DNA of 55,446 nt, from the IMG/VR virus record IMGVR_UViG_3300030430_001863, positions 1 to 55,446 of that record. One strand, 5' to 3'. Source of the DNA: a virus (lineage: Duplodnaviria; Caudoviricetes). Below, piece after piece: positions 1 to 55,446 of the stretch (position 1 is its first letter; every line of letters starts with the position of its first letter). A model generated the notes under the pieces. The model was not told where the DNA came from. It worked only from the letters and a program-made list of their open reading frames with translations, and searched no databases. The translations under genes and the position numbers were made by a program.

Positions 1-98
1 CTCCAGCTTCTTCTTCCAATCATCTGGATACTTTTTACGCAAGAAGATGCCTGTGTGAAACATGGCATTGTTACGCATGCCCTGCGGTATGCCCATCA
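1..98. repeat. Terminal direct repeat, left copy (circular assembly overlap)
   Basis: Identical to 55348-55445; primase frame is continuous across the junction. Confidence 0.95.
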
Positions 99-767: not shown

Positions 768-1541
768 TTAGAACGGAATGTTATCGTCTTCAGCAGGTGT
801 TTCTTCTGCCACAGGCTTGGCATCACCCTTCACAATAGACTGACGGAAGTTTTTTGCTTCCTCAAACAGACTCTTGTCTTGCACAAAGCCCACTTTTTCA
901 ACAGACCAGTTATACCAAGTGCCCATAGTATTGGACTCTTCAGTAGTAGACAGCTTCCACATCATCGCGAACAAAGCGGGTGTCCGCATGTTGCCCTCGC
1001 CATCCTTTATCTTCTGCATGGCAATCTGGGTCTTCCAACGGCGGCTGACCTTCAGTTGCGTAGACTTCATGTCGATAATCGCTGGTTGATGCATGCCGTC
1101 TTCGCCAACAATCATACAATAATGCTGGTCAGACTTAACAAGTTCGTTACCATTGGGAAGAATTTCCTTGGCACCGTTACGCTCTGTCTTACCTAACTCT
1201 GGGTCATTGGAGGCTCTTTCGCCAACAAAACCTCCACCTTGGTCGAGTGGAATGAACTCCAGATATTTCGTTTCTTGAAAGCATGGTACGACAGTCAGGC
1301 CGTCTTCCCCAGACCAGTATTGTCCAGTCACGGTGTTGAAAGCATCGCCCTGTCCCGCACCTTCAATAAACGCAGGGTCAGACTTTTTAATCTGTGGCGA
1401 CAACGCTTGGATGACGCGCACAAAAGGTATCTGTAAATCAGACGTATCATAGTCTACTCCCTCACCAGCGGTAGAAATAATATCGTCCATGATTGCGGCT
1501 GGTAGGCCAGCCTCTTCTTTTTTAGCTACTGAGTTTGCCAT
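768..1541 (-). CDS. Phage single-stranded DNA-binding protein
   Basis: Acidic C-terminus EDDNIPF; DLQIPF..IQALSPQ N-terminal motif; replication context. Confidence 0.7.
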   Translation of the reverse strand: MANSVAKKEEAGLPAAIMDDIISTAGEGVDYDTSDLQIPFVRVIQALSPQIKKSDPAFIEGAGQGDAFNTVTGQYWSGEDGLTVVPCFQETKYLEFIPLDQGGGFVGERASNDPELGKTERNGAKEILPNGNELVKSDQHYCMIVGEDGMHQPAIIDMKSTQLKVSRRWKTQIAMQKIKDGEGNMRTPALFAMMWKLSTTEESNTMGTWYNWSVEKVGFVQDKSLFEEAKNFRQSIVKGDAKPVAEETPAEDDNIPF

Positions 1542-2113
1542 TATTTTTTCCTCTTCACATCGGCAGTTCTTGCAACGTAGGCTCCAAACATATCCAGATC
1601 TATAGGCAGACCTTTCTCAACACGTTCTTTAACAAACGCTTTTAAGGTCATCGAATGGATATGAGTTTTCTTTTCGGGGTGATACCCCTTTTGTTCAAGG
1701 TCGTACATGACATCGCCTGCCAAGTTATCTTCACCTCGTCCAAATGATACGGTGACATCATTCTTTATAATGTCATCCAGACCGTGTTCACGGAGCCACG
1801 CATAGGCTTCCTGCCTGCGGTCAGCAGGGATAGATGCAGAAACAAACGGCTTCAGTTGCACGGTTGCACCGTCAACATCTAACCTCTCGATGCCCATCTG
1901 ATCCATCAGCATGGGTATCTGTTCTGTAGCCATCCTCTGTTTTTCTGCCTTCAGACCTTTCAGGTATTCTTCGGACGCAGCAATCTGTTCCGTTTTCTCC
2001 TGTAAGTCCCTCACTAGGTCAGAGAGTGATTTGGTTGCATTAGCGTCCACACCGTCCAGTGCGGTTGCATCTGCAAACATGTCTTCATCGAATATTTGAT
2101 CTATCTGCTTCAT
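1541..2113 (-). CDS. Conserved phage replication-region protein
   Basis: 190 aa, coiled-coil N-terminus, AYAWLREHG..IIKN and TLKAFVKE motifs; coupled to SSB. Confidence 0.65.
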   Translation of the reverse strand: MKQIDQIFDEDMFADATALDGVDANATKSLSDLVRDLQEKTEQIAASEEYLKGLKAEKQRMATEQIPMLMDQMGIERLDVDGATVQLKPFVSASIPADRRQEAYAWLREHGLDDIIKNDVTVSFGRGEDNLAGDVMYDLEQKGYHPEKKTHIHSMTLKAFVKERVEKGLPIDLDMFGAYVARTADVKRKK

Positions 2114-2144
2114 AGCAAGTATATCCTCTTCAGGTTTAAGGTTA

Positions 2145-2253
2145 CAGGCAGTGGGGGGTCGAACCCCCTCTTTCCCAGGGCGGGAAGAACACCCCCACAG
2201 ACGCGGCCTTCGCTACTGACGCAGTAGAACCTGGTTGTTCCGCACCTTGCCTG
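2145..2253 (-). ncRNA. Candidate tRNA-like structured leader RNA
   Basis: CAGGCA...TGCCTG closing stem, GGGGG-TTCGACC-CCCC T-arm-like hairpin, further internal hairpins. Confidence 0.45.
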
Positions 2254-2307
2254 AGAGGTTGACGTTTGTTTCTCCAACCTCTACATTGAACATAAAGGAG
2301 GACATGC

Positions 2308-3765
2308 ATGAAAGTCAACTACAAATTTAAAACGACACCATATGCACATCAAACAGAAGCTCTGAACAAGAGTATTCATAAGAAGTTCTTTGGCTTTTTT
2401 ATGGAGATGGGCACAGGTAAATCAAAGGTGTTGATTGATAGTATTGCTGTCCTTGCGCATACCAATCAGATAGATTTTGCTTTAATCGTTGCACCAAAAG
2501 GCGTTTATCGGAACTGGATAAACAAAGAGATACCTGACCATTTTTCTGAAGAAGTCCCCCATCAAGTTAGCTACTGGCAAGCCAAAGACACAAAGTCTTA
2601 TCGCAAAGAGCTAAAACAATTCTTCACGAATACCGAACCTGGTGTCAAGGTGTTTGTCATGAATGTCGAGGCGTTCAGTTCGGGCAAAGGCAAAAAGATG
2701 GGAGAGTGGATTGCAGATAGATGTGGCGCAAACGGCCTGATTGCCATTGATGAGTCCACCACCATCAAGAACCCAAAGGCCAACCGCACAAAAGTTCTGA
2801 TCAAAATGTCCAAGAAGTTTAAGTTTCGCAGGCTGCTGACAGGTTCACCTGTAACCAAGTCACCTATGGACTTGTATACTCAATGTGAGTTTCTTGAACC
2901 ACGAGTCTTGGGTTATGACAGCTACTATGCTTTTCGGGGTCGTTACGCGATACTTAGCAAGCAGAAGATGGGTATTAAAGAGTTTCAGACCATTGTCGGG
3001 TTTCGTAACCTGACTGAGCTGTCAACAAAGATTGAACCGTTTACCTATCGGGTTCTGAAAAAAGATTGTCTGGACCTGCCAGAAAAGAACTACACGATAC
3101 GCTATGTAGACATGACCTTGGAACAAGTTCGCATGTACAAGGACATACAGAAAGAAGCGATGGTGCTACTGGACAATGGCGACATCGTGACTGCCATGCA
3201 AGTTATGACACAGCTTCTTCGGCTTCAGCAAATACTTTCGGGACACCTCAAGACAGATGACGGTAACATGGTCGAGGTAGACACCAATCGGGTCAATGCC
3301 TTGCTTGAGTGTATTGAAGAAGTATCAGGTAAAATAATTATCTGGTCTAGGTTTCGGTACGATATTAAGAAAATTTTTATTGCCCTGCAGCGTCAATTCG
3401 GGATCAATTCTGTGGTATCATACTATGGAGACACAAGTGATGAAGATCGTGAAAAGGCAATACATCAGTTCCAGCATGGTGACGCTCGGTTCTTTGTTGC
3501 TAATCCTGCAACGGCTGGTTACGGCCTCACGCTTACTGAAGCCAATACCGTGATATATTATGCAAATGACTTTAACCTTGAAACACGGATCCAGTCAGAA
3601 GACAGGTGTCACAGGATAGGTCAAAGAAACACTGTTACATATATTGACCTGATTACAGAGAGGAGCATTGACGAAAAGATTGTGAAATCGCTGCGTGACA
3701 AAATTGATATTGGAGCAAAAGTGCTCGGAGAGGAGGCAAGAGAATGGCTACAAATTCAAAAGTAA
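2308..3765 (+). CDS. SNF2-family (SF2) helicase
   Basis: MEMGTGKS Walker A, DEST, LTGSP, QSEDRCHRIGQ motif VI; AAGGAGG RBS. Confidence 0.92.
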   Translation: MKVNYKFKTTPYAHQTEALNKSIHKKFFGFFMEMGTGKSKVLIDSIAVLAHTNQIDFALIVAPKGVYRNWINKEIPDHFSEEVPHQVSYWQAKDTKSYRKELKQFFTNTEPGVKVFVMNVEAFSSGKGKKMGEWIADRCGANGLIAIDESTTIKNPKANRTKVLIKMSKKFKFRRLLTGSPVTKSPMDLYTQCEFLEPRVLGYDSYYAFRGRYAILSKQKMGIKEFQTIVGFRNLTELSTKIEPFTYRVLKKDCLDLPEKNYTIRYVDMTLEQVRMYKDIQKEAMVLLDNGDIVTAMQVMTQLLRLQQILSGHLKTDDGNMVEVDTNRVNALLECIEEVSGKIIIWSRFRYDIKKIFIALQRQFGINSVVSYYGDTSDEDREKAIHQFQHGDARFFVANPATAGYGLTLTEANTVIYYANDFNLETRIQSEDRCHRIGQRNTVTYIDLITERSIDEKIVKSLRDKIDIGAKVLGEEAREWLQIQK

Positions 3766-4603: not shown

Positions 4604-4852
4604 ATGAAACCGTGGAACGCAAAACGCGGTGACTTTGTCAAAGACCGCATTAAAAACAAAAACCCCATCGTTCGGTTTTTGTTTGAAGAGATGCATCGGC
4701 AGCAAATTCATGAATGTGACATGAGTGAACGAGTTGGCTTCCATCGTGACACAATGCGAAAATGGCGGACACAACACCAGCCGCGAGTCAGTGATTTAGA
4801 AGATTGTTTGAATTTTTTGGGATATAGCCTTACAGTGGTAAGGAAGAAATAG
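4604..4852 (+). CDS. XRE-like HTH protein
   Basis: MSERVGFHRDTMRKWR...PRVSDLEDCLNFLGY. Confidence 0.7.
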   Translation: MKPWNAKRGDFVKDRIKNKNPIVRFLFEEMHRQQIHECDMSERVGFHRDTMRKWRTQHQPRVSDLEDCLNFLGYSLTVVRKK

Positions 4853-8671: not shown

Positions 8672-8690
8672 GCGACAACATGCAAACATT

Positions 8691-8975
8691 TGTCACGTTT
8701 GTCACACTTATAGAAGAAATTCCTGAAAAAAAAAAAAAAAAAAATAATTTTCCAGGAGGTGTGACAAGTGTGACAAGTGTGACAAGGGGGGTTAACTACA
8801 TGAAAAACAACAAAACTGCTTGTCACGTTTGTGTCACGTTTGTCACGGTACTAGGGGTGTTTTTGCATTTTCACATATATATAGCTTGTGGAAATCGCTT
8901 TTAGGTCATGCTAAAAAAAGGGTAGAAGTGTGACAAGTGTGACAAATTTAGAGGACAACCGTGACAAGTGTGACA
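8691..8975. repeat. Iteron-like GTGACA/TGTCAC array (12 copies) with A19 tract
   Basis: Copies at 8691, 8700, 8761, 8770, 8779, 8821, 8832, 8841, 8930, 8939, 8961, 8970; poly-A 8726-8744. Confidence 0.9.
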
Positions 8976-9512
8976 ACATTAGAAGACGATCCAAAAGAAT
9001 TAAATAATCGTCAAAAAGAGTTTGCCAGATATTACGTTGAAGGGATTTACTCAAACGCAGAATGCGCTCGTAAAGCTGGTTATTCTCCTGCCTCATCTAT
9101 GACAATGGCATCCAAGCTGCTGAACGGTTCTTATGCTCCGCACGTTGTGGAGTATATACAAGAACTCAGGCAAGAACGTGAGAGACGTTATGGGGTAACC
9201 ATGATTGGACAGTTGAAAAGACTGGACGAACTTTCAAGAGGAGCTGAAGATGCTGGACAGTACTCCGCAGCAATTAACGCTGAAAAGATACGCTCTGCCT
9301 TGGGCGGTCTGACAGTTGATAGGCGTGAACAAATTCACCAGCTTGACGACATGACAAAAGAAGACATCGCTTTACGGCTAAGTGAATTGCGCAAGCAATA
9401 TCCGCAGGCGTTCATAGAAGGTACATATACAGAGAAATCAAATGTTGGAAAAAAACTTTTGGACAACCGTAAAGAAGAACCTGCCTCCGAAAACATTCTC
9501 GACACGAATTGA
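8961..9512 (+). CDS. terS: Terminase small subunit
   Basis: LNNRQKEFARYYV...ARKAGYS...ASKLL...YIQELR...AAINAE. Confidence 0.85.
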   Translation: MTSVTTLEDDPKELNNRQKEFARYYVEGIYSNAECARKAGYSPASSMTMASKLLNGSYAPHVVEYIQELRQERERRYGVTMIGQLKRLDELSRGAEDAGQYSAAINAEKIRSALGGLTVDRREQIHQLDDMTKEDIALRLSELRKQYPQAFIEGTYTEKSNVGKKLLDNRKEEPASENILDTN

Positions 9513-9897
9513 AAACAGACATGGTGGCGGAGTGCCTGACGTACACATTGTCTGGGACTGTTTGCCCTTCTGGATAGAATTAAAGGTAACAAAAGGAAAG
9601 GGGGTAAACCTCTCTCCACAACAAATTGCATGGAATACCGCATATTCTCGGTGCGGAGGGCTTTCTTTCATCTTGGTTAAAGGGTCGGGGCAGGCCGACC
9701 TATTTTTGTTTGAGGGGGGTCGGGCATCGGAGGTCGGGGCAGTCGGGCTCGATGCTGAACCCCTGTATCGGGGTCGGGACTGGTCGGGTCTATGGGACAA
9801 GATTCGGGAGTCGGGGTTCGGGACTTCGGGGTCGGGGTTCGGGGGTCATCGGTTCTTGACCCAAGGGGCAGGGACTGGTGCACCAGTACAACAGTAA
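9442..9897 (+). CDS. VRR-NUC / Holliday-junction-resolvase-like nuclease
   Basis: RIEN..GGGVPDV...WIELKV...LSPQQIAW. Confidence 0.8.
   Translation: MLEKNFWTTVKKNLPPKTFSTRIENRHGGGVPDVHIVWDCLPFWIELKVTKGKGVNLSPQQIAWNTAYSRCGGLSFILVKGSGQADLFLFEGGRASEVGAVGLDAEPLYRGRDWSGLWDKIRESGFGTSGSGFGGHRFLTQGAGTGAPVQQ
9682..9846 (+). repeat. TCGGG(G) repeat cluster 1, G-quadruplex-competent
   Basis: e.g. GGGAGTCGGGGTTCGGGACTTCGGGGTCGGGGTTCGGGGG. Confidence 0.85.
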
Positions 9898-9917
9898 GTG
9901 ACCGCAGCACCTAGCTG

Positions 9918-9940
9918 AAAAAAAGGGGCTTGCGCCCCTT
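9918..9940 (-). terminator. Intrinsic terminator
   Basis: AAGGGGC-TTGC-GCCCCTT with A-run on the + strand. Confidence 0.75.
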
Positions 9941-9942
9941 CT

Positions 9943-10545
9943 TCATTTTACTGCCTCTACGATTTGAGTAACTCCGTTATTAGGAATGTAGCAAAGCAAA
10001 CAATCTTTGCATTTTTGACCTGTGCAATTTTGCACTGTCTCACTGTCAGGTGATACGTTGTTAAACGTGCGGTCAAAATGTTTTGGCGGATTATCAAGAA
10101 CCGCATCAATTTTTGGATTGCTGAAAATCAAAATCAGATTTTCTGGTTTGTCATTATTAGCGTAAAACCTATTGATTAAGTCTTTGCGCTTAGTCCACAA
10201 TGCAAATTTAGTATGCGCATTATGTAGTGCAATGTTATGAAGATTTTCTAGCATGGTAAGATTTATCAATTCACCATGTCCTGAAAATCTTACAAACGCT
10301 TCTAAGAATGTCGGCAATAAATGAGGCGGAATAATACCCTCAGATAATGCTTTACTGTTTCTTTCCCATGCAGGAATACATCCCTTGCGAAATGTTTCGA
10401 GCATTTCCCATGAATAGCATTTTGTGCAAATGATATCGTCTGAGCCGCACGCGCTCATTTTTTGGCAATAAGGGTTCGATAGCGTGTTAGTGTTAATCGC
10501 TTTAAACCCTTCTAGCTTGCCTGTCATATTTGAGATTGTAAGCAT
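9943..10545 (-). CDS. GP88-like Cys-rich (Fe-S/radical-SAM-like) protein
   Basis: MTGKLEG, C..M.......ICTKCY, VRFSGHGEL, LWTKR, CKDCLLCY. Confidence 0.7.
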   Translation of the reverse strand: MLTISNMTGKLEGFKAINTNTLSNPYCQKMSACGSDDIICTKCYSWEMLETFRKGCIPAWERNSKALSEGIIPPHLLPTFLEAFVRFSGHGELINLTMLENLHNIALHNAHTKFALWTKRKDLINRFYANNDKPENLILIFSNPKIDAVLDNPPKHFDRTFNNVSPDSETVQNCTGQKCKDCLLCYIPNNGVTQIVEAVK

Positions 10546-10574
10546 TTAATTCTCCATAGTTTTGCTTATGATTT

Positions 10575-10604
10575 ATTTTAACATGAAAACACAAGTAAAA
10601 ACAA
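10575..10604 (-). promoter_or_regulatory. Early promoter (extended -10)
   Basis: TTGTTT-N18-TAAAAT with TGn. Confidence 0.6.
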
Positions 10605-10643
10605 GTTAAATGTTCGGGACTCTAACACTGTCCGCAGCAGCTA

Positions 10644-10675
10644 GGGTGTCGGGGTCGGGGTTCGGGATTCGGGGT
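10644..10675 (+). repeat. TCGGG(G) repeat cluster 2, G-quadruplex-competent
   Basis: GGGTGTCGGGGTCGGGGTTCGGGATTCGGGG. Confidence 0.85.
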
Positions 10676-10740
10676 AAAAGAATCGAGGCCAAGCGGGGGC
10701 TTGGCCTCTAGTCTTGTTATTATGGAGGACTAACAAGAAT
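10676..10740 (-). ncRNA. Candidate anti-Shine-Dalgarno sRNA
   Basis: Upstream TTGACG and TATAAT boxes; hairpin with GUCCUCCAUAA loop; 10-bp GC terminator stem; no ORF. Confidence 0.55.
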
Positions 10741-10823
10741 AATTATAAGTACACCTGGATCAGGTGCTACGTCAATCGTCAAACTTGATTGCGTAGATCA
10801 GGAGGGCGAAAATCGCTAGTACA

Positions 10824-10860
10824 TAAAAAATAACCAGCCCGATGTTGATCAGGCTGGTTA
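10824..10860 (-). terminator. Intrinsic terminator
   Basis: TAACCAGCC...GGCTGGTTA plus A-run on the + strand. Confidence 0.7.
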
Positions 10861-10872
10861 TATCAAGGTTGT

Positions 10873-11244
10873 TCATGCTACGATTTCTAATTTTGTTTCA
10901 GATAAGCCGATTTCTAACTCGCATGTTTCCATCATACGCCGAACCTGTTTCTTGGCTAATGGGATAAACTCCGCAAAGTCGTCACGACTAACAGCATAAG
11001 TCTTGTCCCAAATGTCAGGCTGGTTTTTGTCATAGCCTTTGGCATAAATAACATGAACACCATCGCCATCCATGTCCCTATCTTCCATGTGACATGGTGA
11101 CATGACATAGATGCCATCATCCTTAACCAGCCATAATCCATAATCGCCCGTGTTCTCTGAAGTATAAGGAAGTTTGCGTGGATGGTTCATCATATGTGTA
11201 AGCATACGCTGAAACTCTTTACTCTTAAATTTTAGTCTATGCAT
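10873..11244 (-). CDS. DUF3085-like protein
   Basis: LWLVKDDGIYVM...YAKGY...DDFAE; ATGGAGG RBS. Confidence 0.75.
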   Translation of the reverse strand: MHRLKFKSKEFQRMLTHMMNHPRKLPYTSENTGDYGLWLVKDDGIYVMSPCHMEDRDMDGDGVHVIYAKGYDKNQPDIWDKTYAVSRDDFAEFIPLAKKQVRRMMETCELEIGLSETKLEIVA

Positions 11245-11276
11245 TAATACCTCCATTAGACTATTGTACATGATTT

Positions 11277-11306
11277 AGTATAGCATACCCAGGATATTAA
11301 ATACAA
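11277..11306 (-). promoter_or_regulatory. Early promoter (extended -10)
   Basis: TTGTAT-N18-TATACT with TGn. Confidence 0.65.
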
Positions 11307-11308
11307 AC

Positions 11309-11337
11309 AAAAAGAGGCGGAAAAACCCGCCTCTTTT
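11309..11337. terminator. Bidirectional intrinsic terminator
   Basis: AAAAGAGGCGG-loop-CCGCCTCTTTT. Confidence 0.8.
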
Positions 11338-11354
11338 CGCACCCTATGGAGAAT

Positions 11355-11507
11355 TTATTTTGCTTGGAGCCTACGTTGCAAGATACGATTTTGAGATATG
11401 TTAGTCAGTCTCAAAAGTTTCTGCGTGATTTTTGGCAACGGCTTGAGCCGTTTAATCAAATGTTTTTCGCCATTCTTATCTGGCCTTGTTACATAAACGT
11501 AGTTCAT
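11355..11507 (-). CDS. 50-aa basic ORF (may instead, or also, be a regulatory RNA)
   Basis: MNYVYVTRPDKNGEKHLIKRLKPLPKITQK...; ATGA overlap with upstream gene. Confidence 0.45.
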   Translation of the reverse strand: MNYVYVTRPDKNGEKHLIKRLKPLPKITQKLLRLTNISQNRILQRRLQAK

Positions 11508-11875
11508 GATGAAGCTCTTTCATAATTTAGATATTCTTCTTTTGGATATTCTTGTTCATGCTTTAAATATTCTTCTTTTGGATATGCCAATGGGCGGCTC
11601 AAATATGGCACTTCCAATTCTGGCAATACCTCTTCAATAGTCTCAGCACAAAAAGTCCATCCCGTGCACCCGTATTCGTAGTCGATAATAACTGAAAACC
11701 TGAACGAGTCTTCAATCTCTCTCTTTTTAGGGTCAGGATGATTAACGAATATTTGATAGCCTTTATAATAAAAGCTAGGGCAAACATCATTTTTATAACT
11801 AATGTTCACCCAACCCTCAGGAACGTGAAAGTCCTTCAAGCAATCTTTAAAAAACTTATCCATAAAATGCATCAT
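11504..11875 (-). CDS. Hypothetical early protein
   Basis: W.N.SY.ND.CPSF motif; internal duplication of YPKEEYL. Confidence 0.7.
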   Translation of the reverse strand: MMHFMDKFFKDCLKDFHVPEGWVNISYKNDVCPSFYYKGYQIFVNHPDPKKREIEDSFRFSVIIDYEYGCTGWTFCAETIEEVLPELEVPYLSRPLAYPKEEYLKHEQEYPKEEYLNYERASS

Positions 11876-12294
11876 GCCGCCCCTCTTCCATACTTTTCCA
11901 TCATGTCAACGTGGGTGCCTTCCCAAATGGTTTCCCATTTAATTGAGCCGTCCTTCTGATAAAATGACTCCTGAATTTCAACCCATAAAGTTTTAAGGCT
12001 CTTATCAAAATGAATGATGTAATGATAGTCGCACCAACTATGTGCATCCAGAATTTCATCTTCATTTTTAAAATGATGTGATATTAAACGAACCTCGCCA
12101 CCGTTCTTGTTCTTATTGGCGGCAACGAATGCGGCGGCAAATTCATCCGCCTCGTATCTCGGAAGAGGCCATGCCATAGACTTAGCCTCCTCAATAAAGT
12201 GAACCGCACCTTGCGGATAATTATCATAATGCTTGTATACAAAGCACTCGTCACTATCGTTATCTTGAAATTGATAAATCGCTCTAGTTCCCAT
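11872..12294 (-). CDS. Conserved phage early protein (MGTR/YKHYD.YP family)
   Basis: ATGGAGGAC RBS before ATG 12294. Confidence 0.75.
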   Translation of the reverse strand: MGTRAIYQFQDNDSDECFVYKHYDNYPQGAVHFIEEAKSMAWPLPRYEADEFAAAFVAANKNKNGGEVRLISHHFKNEDEILDAHSWCDYHYIIHFDKSLKTLWVEIQESFYQKDGSIKWETIWEGTHVDMMEKYGRGAA

Positions 12295-12314
12295 TTTGTC
12301 CTCCATATAGACGG

Positions 12315-12363
12315 TTAAAAAAGGGCACGGTTCATTTTTTTATTACTCCTTATGAACCGTGCC
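12315..12363 (-). promoter_or_regulatory. Putative attenuator: terminator hairpin enclosing the RBS and start of 6-aa uORF MNRALF
   Basis: 12-bp perfect stem, AAGGAG in loop, T6 tail. Confidence 0.55.
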
Positions 12364-12390
12364 AAGTTGTGAACGAAAGGATAATAATTT

Positions 12391-12420
12391 ATCCTACCAT
12401 AAAAACAAATAAAAACAAAC
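12391..12420 (-). promoter_or_regulatory. Early promoter candidate
   Basis: TTGTTT...TGG-TAGGAT, similar to the 10575 promoter. Confidence 0.5.
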
Positions 12421-28326: not shown

Positions 28327-28548
28327 ATGGCTATGAAGAAGAAAGGCTACCGTGCTGGTGGTAAAGTGATGAAGAAGAAAGGCTACCGTGCTGGTGGTAA
28401 AGTCAGAAGAATGGCTAAAGGCGGCGCAATGGGCGGTAAAAAGATGAGAATGATGTCCAAAGGCGGTTCTACTGGTGGCAAAAAAATGACTGTTGCACAA
28501 CTTCGTGCTGCTGCTAAAAAGCTAGGATACAAAGTATCTAAAGCCTAA
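28327..28548 (+). CDS. Basic xxGG-repeat protein
   Basis: KKKGYRAGGKV x2 (tandem duplication 28333-28403), MAKGG, MSKGG. Confidence 0.8.
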   Translation: MAMKKKGYRAGGKVMKKKGYRAGGKVRRMAKGGAMGGKKMRMMSKGGSTGGKKMTVAQLRAAAKKLGYKVSKA

Positions 28549-54596: not shown

Positions 54597-55446
54597 TTTC
54601 TGTCTCCTTCTTTGGAATATGAACTTCGTTTTCGTCAAACTCTGGGACAAACCAGACACGAAGGTTTTGCCACCTGCCTGTCTTATCGTCTTTGAGTTTG
54701 TAGTAAGTGTTACAATCGCTGCCGTTGTTGAGTATCTTCAGCCGCTCCTGTATCTGTGGTCTGTTAAGTTGCACAAAGTTTCTTGAACGCAGAAACTCCT
54801 GCAACCCCTTCATTGTAAAGAACGTTAAGTCGTTCTCTGTCCACGGCTTACCAAGCCGTAGTTCTTCTGGTGCTCTCGCACGAATCCTGCTTGTGCAGTA
54901 TATCTCTAGCAGTTCTTCAAACTGCCCTGTTGTGGTCAACTCTTTCGGCACCTCGATGCTGGTAGCCGTTGACATCATATTATTAACAAGTTGTTGCCAG
55001 TCCCCTGGTTTCATGGTGGGTGGCATAAAATCAATCTGTTCCATGCATGCACGTTGGAACTGCAAAGGCATTTGAAGCTGTTCGGTAGACAACTCCAATC
55101 TCTGTCCGTTTACATCAATGAAGTATAAGCGCGGGTCTGATTTTAAGATTGTCAGTCCACCCATAGACGGAGCCGCAGCGGCACCACCAATACCGTGCTC
55201 CATTGTCCGACACTGATCACGGTTGCAATAACTGGACATTGGTTCTTCTTTGCACTTGTAGCCGTACTTGTCTTTCTCTATCGACCTCTGCAAAGTGACT
55301 ACTTCATCGGCTGGCATGGGCGGCTTGCATATCTTCTGGTTCCATGTCTCCAGCTTCTTCTTCCAATCATCTGGATACTTTTTACGCAAGAAGATGCCTG
55401 TGTGAAACATGGCATTGTTACGCATGCCCTGCGGTATGCCCATCAA
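54580..55446 (-). CDS. Primase C-terminal part (PriCT-like); continuation of 1..765
   Basis: G.RNNAMF, P....EV, Cys cluster, ends ENDIPF. Confidence 0.8.
   Translation of the reverse strand: MMGIPQGMRNNAMFHTGIFLRKKYPDDWKKKLETWNQKICKPPMPADEVVTLQRSIEKDKYGYKCKEEPMSSYCNRDQCRTMEHGIGGAAAAPSMGGLTILKSDPRLYFIDVNGQRLELSTEQLQMPLQFQRACMEQIDFMPPTMKPGDWQQLVNNMMSTATSIEVPKELTTTGQFEELLEIYCTSRIRARAPEELRLGKPWTENDLTFFTMKGLQEFLRSRNFVQLNRPQIQERLKILNNGSDCNTYYKLKDDKTGRWQNLRVWFVPEFDENEVHIPKKETENDIPF
55348..55445. repeat. Terminal direct repeat, right copy
   Basis: Identical to 1-98. Confidence 0.95.

What the first reader, a model, noticed from the sequence alone, without database searches (positions are those of the whole stretch)
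11309..11507. Early transcript carrying two antisense segments, including a perfect 20-nt match to a gene ~9.8 kb away
Seen: 11364-11383 (TTGGAGCCTACGTTGCAAGA) is the exact reverse complement of 1568-1587, in the 3' end of gene 1541..2113 and about 27 nt before the SSB start. Both loci are transcribed leftward, so the two RNAs would pair. Nearby, 11344-11355 (CTATGGAGAATT) is the exact reverse complement of 10548-10559, the RBS of the GP88-like gene. These segments lie between internal hairpins (TTTTGAGA..TCTCAAAA; AACGGCT..GCCGTT) and a terminator. A rough estimate puts a chance 20-nt inverted match in 55 kb at order 10^-3. Inference: a multi-target, 3'-end-derived trans-antisense RNA that times replication or early genes, or silences superinfecting relatives.
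Basis: partly seen in the sequence, partly recalled or inferred. Interest (0 to 1): 0.85.

Follow-up and report, generated by a model that had tools for sequence, protein, structure and literature searches.

The report
Phage gene tail holds copied antisense
A marine phage carries, in the tail of a tiny early gene, an 18-letter insertion copied backwards from one of its own replication-module genes, which is more likely a DNA-copying scar than a working RNA regulator, though regulation is not excluded.

Summary
The 20-nt inverted match (1568-1587 / 11364-11383) is real. It is the longest inverted repeat in this 55.3-kb phage genome, and only 3 of 915 simulated genomes reach 20 nt. The segment lies inside a conserved 50-aa gene (11355..11507, minus strand). 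It is also an 18-nt in-frame insertion that four sister contigs and three distant homologues lack.

The donor is the antisense strand of the phage's own gp33-like gene. That site codes a motif conserved across 80 related contigs, but only 2 of them carry this exact 20-mer. So the copy was made from this lineage's own allele.

The insertion allele is a minority: 13 of 125 contigs in the protein cluster. None of 79 related loci has an antisense copy of the gp33-like gene's end. The second, 12-nt "antisense segment" is at chance level.

The two messenger RNAs would pair strongly (about -35 kcal/mol). There is no RNA evidence, and covariation could not be tested.

My odds: a templated-insertion scar with no evolved role about 0.55, and a young lineage-specific trans-antisense regulator about 0.3.

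The parts
11366..11383 (-). 18-nt in-frame insertion (adds ILQRRL) in the tail of ORF50. It is an exact copy of the antisense strand of the gp33-like gene.
   Evidence: Absent from L086, L087/L089, L091 and L092 in alignments. Absent from the distant homologues in L041, L051 and L053. Present in L001 and L090.
11361..11383 (-). Arm A of the inverted repeat: 20 exact nt (11364-11383), or 22 of 23 with the pre-existing flank AAGCA.
   Evidence: the repeat finder pair I1; pattern search of the genome.
1568..1590 (-). Arm B, the donor or target site. It lies in the sense strand of the gp33-like gene, codes FGAYVAR, and sits 27-46 nt upstream of the start of the next gene.
   Evidence: The protein motif is conserved in the 82 related loci (80 distinct contigs) that carry the gene, but the 20-mer is exact in only 2 of the 80 contigs.
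11355..11507 (-). ORF50, a small conserved basic protein of unknown function. Its start overlaps the stop of the upstream gene (ATGA). It is the last gene before the terminator.
   Evidence: ORF list. The cluster has 17 members and three tail classes. Distant homologues keep the same position about 9 kb upstream of the gp33-like gene. No Pfam, PHROG or NCBIfam family matches.
11307..11340 (-). Intrinsic terminator that ends the operon containing ORF50.
   Evidence: 15-pair stem followed by a T run; seen again in the fold. In relatives the stem is kept while the loop letters differ.
1541..2113 (-). gp33-like gene (Pfam PF23984, DUF7307), the donor of the copied segment.
   Evidence: Pfam E 1.1e-29 and PHROG 2378 E 1.5e-45.
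768..1541 (-). gp34-like gene (Pfam PF23977). Its start overlaps the gp33-like stop (TAATG). It has an acidic C-terminal tail ending in PF, so it may be SSB-like.
   Evidence: Pfam E 2.6e-64. 55 of 58 distinct homologues end in PF after an acidic run. The likeness to the SSB tip is recalled, not tested.
11344..11355 (-). 12-nt stretch complementary to 10548-10559, the ribosome-binding site of the weak GP88-like gene. Judged to be chance plus generic anti-SD/SD pairing.
11504..11875 (-). Upstream gene of 123 aa with no family. It diverges sharply between relatives, whereas ORF50, the terminator and the stretch after it stay nearly identical.

Best explanation
The antisense segment is a templated-insertion scar. 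In the recent ancestry of this phage lineage, a DNA replication or repair intermediate at the tail of the small early gene ORF50 switched to the opposite strand of the phage's own gp33-like gene, 9.8 kb away (or on a sister genome copy). It copied 18 nt and returned at a short microhomology: AA, or 4 of 5 nt AAGCA/AAACA.

The product is an in-frame six-codon insertion (ILQRRL) in a poorly constrained C-terminal tail. It is tolerated and segregates as a minority allele.

Shown: the insertion is the derived state, the donor is exact, it matches this lineage's own allele, and it is a minority allele. Inferred: the template-switch mechanism, and that the resulting 20-23 bp RNA complementarity has no evolved regulatory role, although the two mRNAs could pair as a side effect.
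For: 1. The match coincides with an indel. The 18 nt are missing from 4 sister contigs that are otherwise nearly identical across ORF50, the terminator and the stretch after it (L086, L087/L089, L091, L092). They are also missing from three distant homologues with the same gene order (L041, L051, L053). So the insertion is the derived state.
2. The donor site codes a motif conserved across 80 related contigs, so it is ancestral. Those contigs show 23 distinct 20-mers. Only 2 of 80 carry the exact one, 1 has one mismatch, and 77 have 2-8 mismatches. The copy therefore came from this lineage's own allele.
3. Outside the window, the exact 20-mer occurs only at locus A (L001, L090) or locus B (L002/L006, L003/L007): 3 contigs in viral contigs and none in genome contigs. 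No other source is known.
4. It is a minority allele: 13 of 125 contigs, against 83 with the short tail and 29 with a third tail. The body variants K/R15 and I/V27 occur with both tails, so the indel segregates in a recombining population.
5. The tail tolerates change. There are three tail classes, and one is read in a shifted frame.
6. No other lineage has anything similar. In 79 related loci of 6 kb or more, the longest inverted match to the gp33-like 3' end is 13 nt, the same as for control windows.
7. The target does not cover the ribosome-binding site or start codon of the next gene.
Against: Remote templated insertions are not a general habit here. Of 11 window-specific indels examined, only this one has a remote donor, and two others are local repeat-unit changes.

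The placement is what a regulator would want. It is on the transcribed strand, in antisense orientation to a co-directional gene, between the last hairpin and a strong terminator, and mostly unpaired in a short 3' fragment. The donor lies just upstream of the SSB-like gene in the replication module.

L001 keeps all 18 nt although its neighbouring genes are only about 84% identical to the window's. However, the ORF50 module itself is about 96% identical there, so this says little.

Only one junction shows microhomology. I found no paper describing such long-range templated insertions in phages (listing and abstracts only).
Confidence: 0.55

Rival explanations
1. A young, lineage-specific trans-antisense regulator. 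The 3' end of the operon's mRNA, or a fragment processed from it that ends at the terminator, pairs over 22 of 23 nt with the gp33-like/gp34-like mRNA 27-46 nt upstream of the SSB-like start. This would trigger double-strand-specific cleavage or hinder coupled translation. The effect would be to time the replication module, or to silence co-infecting relatives that share this allele. The templated insertion would be how the guide was born, and selection would be why it persists.
For: Orientation and placement fit: the transcribed strand, between the last hairpin and a 15-pair terminator. The predicted gain on pairing is about -35 kcal/mol, and most seed positions are unpaired in the 118-nt 3' fragment. 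The target is in the replication module next to the SSB-like gene. The insertion is the only remote-templated indel of 11 examined. It is kept intact in the window, L001 and L090, and as ILQRRL in three protein variants on 13 contigs. Phage RNAs that pair in trans with phage mRNAs are known, for example P1/P7 c4 (review PMC12197685, passages read).
Against: It is absent from 4 of the 7 other contigs with this locus and from 112 of 125 contigs at protein level. There is nothing comparable in 79 related loci. The guide lies in translated sequence. In the fold of the full ORF, the first 16 of its 20 nt are mostly paired, unpaired probability 0.01-0.48. No promoter-like site lies on the minus strand between 11384 and 11560, so an RNA would have to be processed. 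The target misses the Shine-Dalgarno sequence and the start codon. There is no covariation evidence, because no other contig holds both loci.
Confidence: 0.3
2. A DNA-level element: the 20-bp sequence is a protein-binding or recombination site needed at two places, where orientation does not matter.
For: Two exact copies exist in one genome.
Against: The copy in the gp33-like gene varies freely at synonymous positions among relatives, with 23 distinct 20-mers in 80 contigs. Sister genomes do without the second copy. By my reading of the coordinates, an inversion between the arms would break the gp33-like gene. There are only two copies in the genome.
Confidence: 0.04
3. Selection acts on the protein: the six extra residues (ILQRRL) improve or change ORF50's function, and their origin from the gp33-like gene is incidental.
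For: The insertion is in frame and has no stop codon. All three protein variants keep ILQRRL intact.
Against: The tail is variable and short in distant homologues. ORF50 has no known function or family against which to judge it. By my own arithmetic, an in-frame, stop-free result has roughly a 1 in 4 chance.
Confidence: 0.07
4. A chance match or an assembly artefact.
For: 3 of 915 simulated genomes reach 20 nt.
Against: The match coincides exactly with an 18-nt indel. The insertion allele appears in independently assembled contigs: L001 from IMG/VR, L090 from another collection, and protein records from ENA, Logan and JGI.
Confidence: 0.01

Closest known systems
Templated insertions by polymerase template switching (microhomology-mediated; short inverted templated insertions at breaks)
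   Same: The insert is short (18 nt), inverted, an exact copy of a donor in the same genome, and has microhomology at the return junction. Abstracts seen describe templated insertions from template switching at microhomology (PMC8421209) and templated inverted duplications of about 5-34 bp at breaks (PMC11724301).
   Different: Those cases are in yeast and cancer cells, and per the PMC11724301 abstract the inverted duplications arise by foldback. Here the donor is 9.8 kb away (or on another genome copy), the genome is a phage's, and only one junction shows microhomology. I read only the abstracts.
P1/P7 c4 antisense RNA
   Same: A phage RNA that pairs, by sequence complementarity, with a phage mRNA made elsewhere in the genome (review PMC12197685, passage read). 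From recall, c4 and its target lie on the same strand and transcript, as the two loci here do.
   Different: According to the review, c4 binds around the ribosome-binding site of ant and depends on loops in a defined structure. Here the site lies 27-46 nt upstream of the next start, the guide is inside a coding tail, it is polymorphic, and no RNA species is shown.
3'-end-derived or terminator-proximal base-pairing sRNAs; phage examples such as lambda PreS
   Same: The complementary stretch sits just upstream of an intrinsic terminator at an operon's end. PreS and other phage sRNAs are described in the review.
   Different: The complementarity is perfect over 20 nt, which the review's introduction associates with cis-encoded antisense RNAs. 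From recall, trans-acting sRNAs usually have short imperfect seeds. There is no seed conservation, no evidence of processing, and the host and its chaperones are unknown.
CRISPR spacers or mini-arrays carried by phages
   Same: A target-derived segment of about 20 nt placed at a distant locus.
   Different: No flanking repeats and no match to any Rfam family above threshold. The segment is in frame inside a gene. The 20-mer is absent from 185,579 species' genomes.

Membership tests
Templated insertion (template-switch mutation) | The inserted state is derived relative to sister and outgroup alleles. | tested here: met
   Absent in L086, L087/L089, L091 and L092 and in the distant homologues L041, L051 and L053.
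Templated insertion (template-switch mutation) | An exact donor sequence exists elsewhere in the same genome. | tested here: met
   18 of 18 nt (20 with the flank) match at 1568-1587 in inverted orientation.
Templated insertion (template-switch mutation) | Microhomology at the junctions. | tested here: inconclusive
   The return junction shares AA (4 of 5 nt, AAGCA/AAACA). The entry junction shares none.
Trans-acting base-pairing sRNA (3'-end-derived type) | A discrete stable RNA with a defined 5' end and a terminator 3' end. | not testable with these tools
   The terminator is present, but no RNA data could be obtained.
Trans-acting base-pairing sRNA (3'-end-derived type) | The seed is conserved among relatives that keep the locus. 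| tested here: not met
   The seed is present in 2 of the 7 other contigs with the locus and in 13 of 125 contigs at protein level.
Trans-acting base-pairing sRNA (3'-end-derived type) | Complementarity to a target mRNA, with covariation. | tested here: inconclusive
   Complementarity is 22 of 23 nt. Covariation cannot be tested because no other contig holds both loci.
P1/P7 c4-type phage antisense RNA | Pairing covers the ribosome-binding site of the regulated gene (feature taken from review PMC12197685). | tested here: not met
   The site ends 27 nt upstream of the start at 1541, and the Shine-Dalgarno-like AAGAGGA lies outside it.
Rfam RNA families | A match at or above the gathering score. 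| tested here: not met
   Within 10200-12200 there were only sub-threshold hits. At the locus itself there was one 14-bit hit on the terminator, against a gathering score of 279.
CRISPR-like array | Direct repeats flanking the spacer-like segment. | tested here: not met
   No repeat family flanks 11364-11383.
   Pfam gives only Pam3_Gp34, NCBIfam gives nothing, and there is no PDB relative by sequence. The fold was not predicted.
   The window protein ends in EDDNIPF, and 55 of 58 distinct homologues end in PF.

The most novel reading that the evidence does not exclude
The 18-nt block is a freshly captured guide derived from its own target. A template-switch event placed an exact antisense copy of the phage's gp33-like gene in the single-stranded stretch between the last hairpin and the terminator of an early operon. 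That would create, in one step, a trans-acting antisense RNA against the gp33-like/SSB-like mRNA of the replication module. It would be a natural snapshot of how a regulatory RNA is born. The ORF50 tail, which carries three unrelated variants at the same spot in different lineages, might then be a site where guides are gained and swapped.
Probability: 0.3. Interest if true: 0.75.

Novelty: new variant of a known kind. Interest (0 to 1): 0.45.

Why it matters
If it is only a scar, it is still a clean natural example of a long-range, inverted, templated insertion in a phage genome. Donor, acceptor and the uninserted sister alleles are all in hand, and I found no such phage case in one literature search. 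This bears on how phage genomes mutate. It is also a warning that perfect "antisense" matches can arise with no function.

If it is functional, it shows a one-step route from target sequence to trans-acting regulator. It would also add a self-targeting RNA control of a replication module in an abundant group of uncultured marine phages; 450 related gp33-like loci were found in IMG/VR. The insertion and non-insertion alleles that exist in nature form a ready-made experiment.

Tried and rejected
**Relatives among named phages.** megablast and blastn of 10400-12400 against 50,697 phage records found no match. A protein search with the gp34-like protein found 513 records, all under 60% identity and the listed best ones 32-36% (Pseudomonas, Vibrio and other phages). 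No cultured close relative and no host follow from this.

**Host.** Four MAG contigs of unrelated taxa carry gp33-like genes at 46-64% identity. I take these to be binned phage contigs, not evidence of a host. None has an ORF50 homologue.

**Covariation.** No contig other than the window holds both loci. L086 reaches only to window position 4604. L006 starts at 8751. The two are 94% identical where they overlap, so they cannot be joined into one genotype.

**RNA evidence.** No RNA holder was listed by the look-up of sequencing runs.

**Read laying.** All four runs were contigs.
- An X3 contig is identical to the window over 8761-11700, but X3 is from the same study as a possible source sample.
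- X6 and X7 contigs cover 11002-11641 and 11002-11571 with 26 other letters and 6 gap letters. The table did not show where these lie, so the allele there is unknown.

**Class c tail (L093).** It is not significantly similar to the 18-nt insert (p 0.12-0.15). It has no remote donor among the 1.13 Mb of loci held; the best inverted match is 15 nt with one mismatch, in another phage. Its own contig is only 5.8 kb, so a donor in its own genome cannot be excluded.

**Failed or unavailable steps.**
- My first shuffle test wrongly counted palindromes and was discarded.
As a result the longer contigs behind P0003 (26.6 kb) and P0006 (56.8 kb) could not be fetched.
- No supplements of papers were consulted.
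- No structure was predicted for ORF50, the gp33-like or the gp34-like protein.

Full report
**What the window is.** It is a complete IMG/VR virus record of 55,446 bp. Its first 98 bases repeat at its end, so the genome is about 55,347 bp and circularly closed or terminally redundant. It has no close relative among 50,697 named phage records. Its nearest relatives are uncultured marine viral contigs.

**The observation.** The stretch 11364-11383 is the exact reverse complement of 1568-1587. With one mismatch the match runs to 22 of 23 nt (1568-1590 / 11361-11383). It is the longest inverted repeat in the genome, and the next exact one is 16 nt. Of 915 order-2 Markov genomes of the same length, 3 (0.3%) had a non-overlapping exact inverted repeat of 20 nt or more. 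An earlier shuffle that counted palindromes was discarded.

60% of the 278 tiles of 199 nt have at least one inverted 12-mer elsewhere in the genome. It also contains the generic CUCC/GGAG pair. In relatives the complementarity within each genome falls to 9 nt (L093) and 7 nt (L086, L089). L086 changed the target side without any change on the other side.

**Anatomy of the locus.** The segment is not in untranslated RNA. It lies in the last codons of a 50-aa minus-strand ORF, 11355..11507. The start of this ORF overlaps the stop of the upstream gene as ATGA.

The ORF is real:
- It belongs to a protein cluster of 17 members from several public sources.
- Differences between alleles include synonymous changes and conservative replacements.
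- Relatives have GGAGG-type ribosome-binding sites in front of it.
- Homologues at 41-48% identity keep an invariant QKLL.L.N core. They sit in the same place, about 9 kb upstream of the gp33-like gene, in L041, L051 and L053.

It matches no Pfam, PHROG or NCBIfam family. A 15-pair intrinsic terminator follows the ORF directly (11340..11307). After that comes a block conserved up to the next gene, a DUF3085 protein. I read this block as a promoter with an extended -10 element, but the consensus scan did not list it.

**The key finding.** Seven other contigs carry this locus. L001 and L090 have the 20-mer. L086, L087/L089, L091 and L092 lack exactly 18 nt, corresponding to window 11366-11383 on the minus strand. 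L093 has a different tail.

The missing block is in frame: the tail reads ...QNR-ILQRRL-QAK with it and ...QNR-KAK without it. The distant homologues also have short basic tails, so the 18 nt are an insertion, not a deletion in the others. The 20-nt match is therefore the 18 inserted letters plus two letters (AA) of flank that was already there. The extension to 22 of 23 is the flank AAGCA against AAACA at the donor.

**The donor.** 1568-1587 lies in the sense strand of the gp33-like gene (Pfam PF23984; 1541..2113, minus strand). There it codes part of DLDMFGAYVARTADVKRKK, a motif conserved in all 82 loci examined, which represent 80 distinct contigs. Synonymous positions vary freely. There are 23 distinct 20-mers in the 80 contigs: 2 are exact, 1 has one mismatch, and 77 have 2-8 mismatches.

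So the gp33-like site is ancestral. The ORF50 insert is a copy of its antisense strand, made from an allele of this very lineage. No other source of the 20-mer turned up in IMG/VR (3 contigs, all of locus A or B type) or in one genome from each of 185,579 prokaryote species (none).

**Target context.** The gp33-like stop overlaps the start of a gp34-like gene as TAATG (PF23977). That protein ends in an acidic tail with a terminal PF, as do 55 of 58 distinct homologues. A PrimPol-like gene and an SNF2-type helicase are neighbours, so this is a replication module. The site lies 27-46 nt upstream of the gp34-like start and does not cover its Shine-Dalgarno sequence.

**How common the insertion is.** In the protein cluster, by the contig counts given:
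- The short tail is on 83 contigs (P0005, P0006, P0009, P0010, P0011, P0013).
- The ILQRRL tail is on 13 contigs (P0003, P0004, P0012).
- A third tail, ...NIACEMAKQK, with an N-terminal extension, is on 29 contigs (P0001, P0007, P0008, P0014, P0015, P0016).
- Two of the 17 cluster members were not listed.

The body variants K/R at residue 15 and I/V at residue 27 occur with both the short and the long tail. The indel therefore segregates in a recombining population.

L090 is 100% identical to the window over 2,275 nt and may be the same population. L001 is the only clearly different genome with the insertion. There, the ORF50, terminator and downstream stretch is about 96% identical to the window, while the whole 998-nt alignment with the neighbouring genes is about 84%. 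Its intact 18 nt therefore carry little information.

**Is this a habit of the family?** No. In 79 related loci of at least 6 kb that carry a gp33-like gene, the longest inverted match between the last 120 nt around the gene's end and the rest of the locus is 13 nt. That is the same as for random control windows. The flanks held vary, and not all reach 10 kb upstream. Of 11 window-specific indels found against relatives, only this one has a remote donor. Two others are local repeat-unit changes.

**RNA considerations.** If both genes are transcribed as their orientation implies, the two RNAs can form a 22-of-23 duplex. Cofolding a 118-nt 3' fragment with a 141-nt target gives about -35 kcal/mol relative to the separate folds. 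In that fragment most seed positions are unpaired, with probabilities of 0.24-0.96. In the full ORF context, the first 16 of the 20 nt are mostly paired, with unpaired probabilities of 0.01-0.48. In the minimum-energy fold, seven nt of the insert pair with the 5' end of the ORF.

No minus-strand promoter-like site lies just upstream, so a small RNA would have to be cut out of the mRNA. No Rfam family matches at threshold.

**Most likely explanation.** The origin is well supported: this is a templated, inverted copy of 18 nt from the phage's own gene, inserted into a tolerant gene tail. The mechanism is inferred. It would be a template switch during replication or break repair, with return at a short microhomology.

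On function the evidence is split.
- Against an evolved regulator: it is a minority allele, sister genomes and the rest of the family lack it, it lies in translated sequence, and its target misses the ribosome-binding site.
- For a regulator: the placement on the transcribed strand just before a terminator, the antisense orientation, the target in the replication module, and its being the only remote-templated indel seen.

I put the scar reading at about 0.55 and a young lineage-specific antisense regulator at about 0.3. Small shares go to selection on the protein tail, a DNA-level site, and chance.

**Comparison with what is known.**
- As a mutation, it resembles the templated insertions attributed to template switching at microhomology, and the short inverted templated insertions seen at breaks (PMC8421209 and PMC11724301, abstracts seen). 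It differs in its distant donor and its phage setting.
[quoted passage not shown] It fails that defining feature.
- It also lacks the seed conservation expected of 3'-end-derived sRNAs.

I do not file it as a member of either RNA class.

**Limits.**
- No contig other than the window holds both loci, so covariation could not be tested.
- Only contigs could be laid, not raw reads.
- The host is unknown. MAG hits are to unrelated taxa.

Noticed in passing
window 1-98 and 55348-55445: The two ends are an exact 98-nt direct repeat, so the record is a circularly closed or terminally redundant genome of about 55,347 bp.
   Followed up: partly
window 8690-8980: Arrays of GTGTGACAA / TTGTCACG repeats in both orientations (families D3 and D14), which look like iterons or operators. 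Read laying skipped 8716-8756 as a repeat.
   Followed up: no
window 9807-9851 and 10651-10674: G-rich GGGGTCGGGGTTCGGG-type repeats. Relatives gain or lose units of 21-31 nt here.
   Followed up: no
window 768-1541 (-): The gp34-like protein ends in an acidic tail with a terminal PF, as do 55 of 58 distinct homologues. This resembles the SSB C-terminal tip (recalled), yet no SSB domain is detected. It may be a non-canonical SSB or an SSB-tail mimic.
   Followed up: partly
window 11355-11383 (-) and L093:1605-1645: The tail of ORF50 is an indel hot spot. Three unrelated tail classes sit at the same position in different lineages, and one is read in a shifted frame. The L093 tail has no detectable donor in the loci held.
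   Followed up: partly
window 10827-10906 (-): A weak, sub-threshold Rfam hit to CyaR/RyeE (26.7 bits against a gathering score of 47, E 0.039). It overlaps the terminator at 10861-10830, downstream of the DUF3085 gene. It is probably driven by the terminator.
   Followed up: no
window 11504-11875 (-) versus 11250-11507: There is a sharp mosaic boundary at the ORF50 start. ORF50, the terminator and the stretch after it stay close to identical in L001 and well conserved in the other relatives, while the upstream gene diverges strongly or is replaced, as in L087.
   Followed up: partly
window 2137-2326: The divergent intergenic region between the gp33-like gene and the SNF2-like helicase is replaced by other sequence in near-identical relatives. 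L002 has about 70 nt where the window has about 188 nt, and contig joints occur in X3 and X6.
   Followed up: no
window 28333-28403: An exact 35-nt repeat with 36-nt start-to-start spacing lies inside a coding region (family D13).
   Followed up: no
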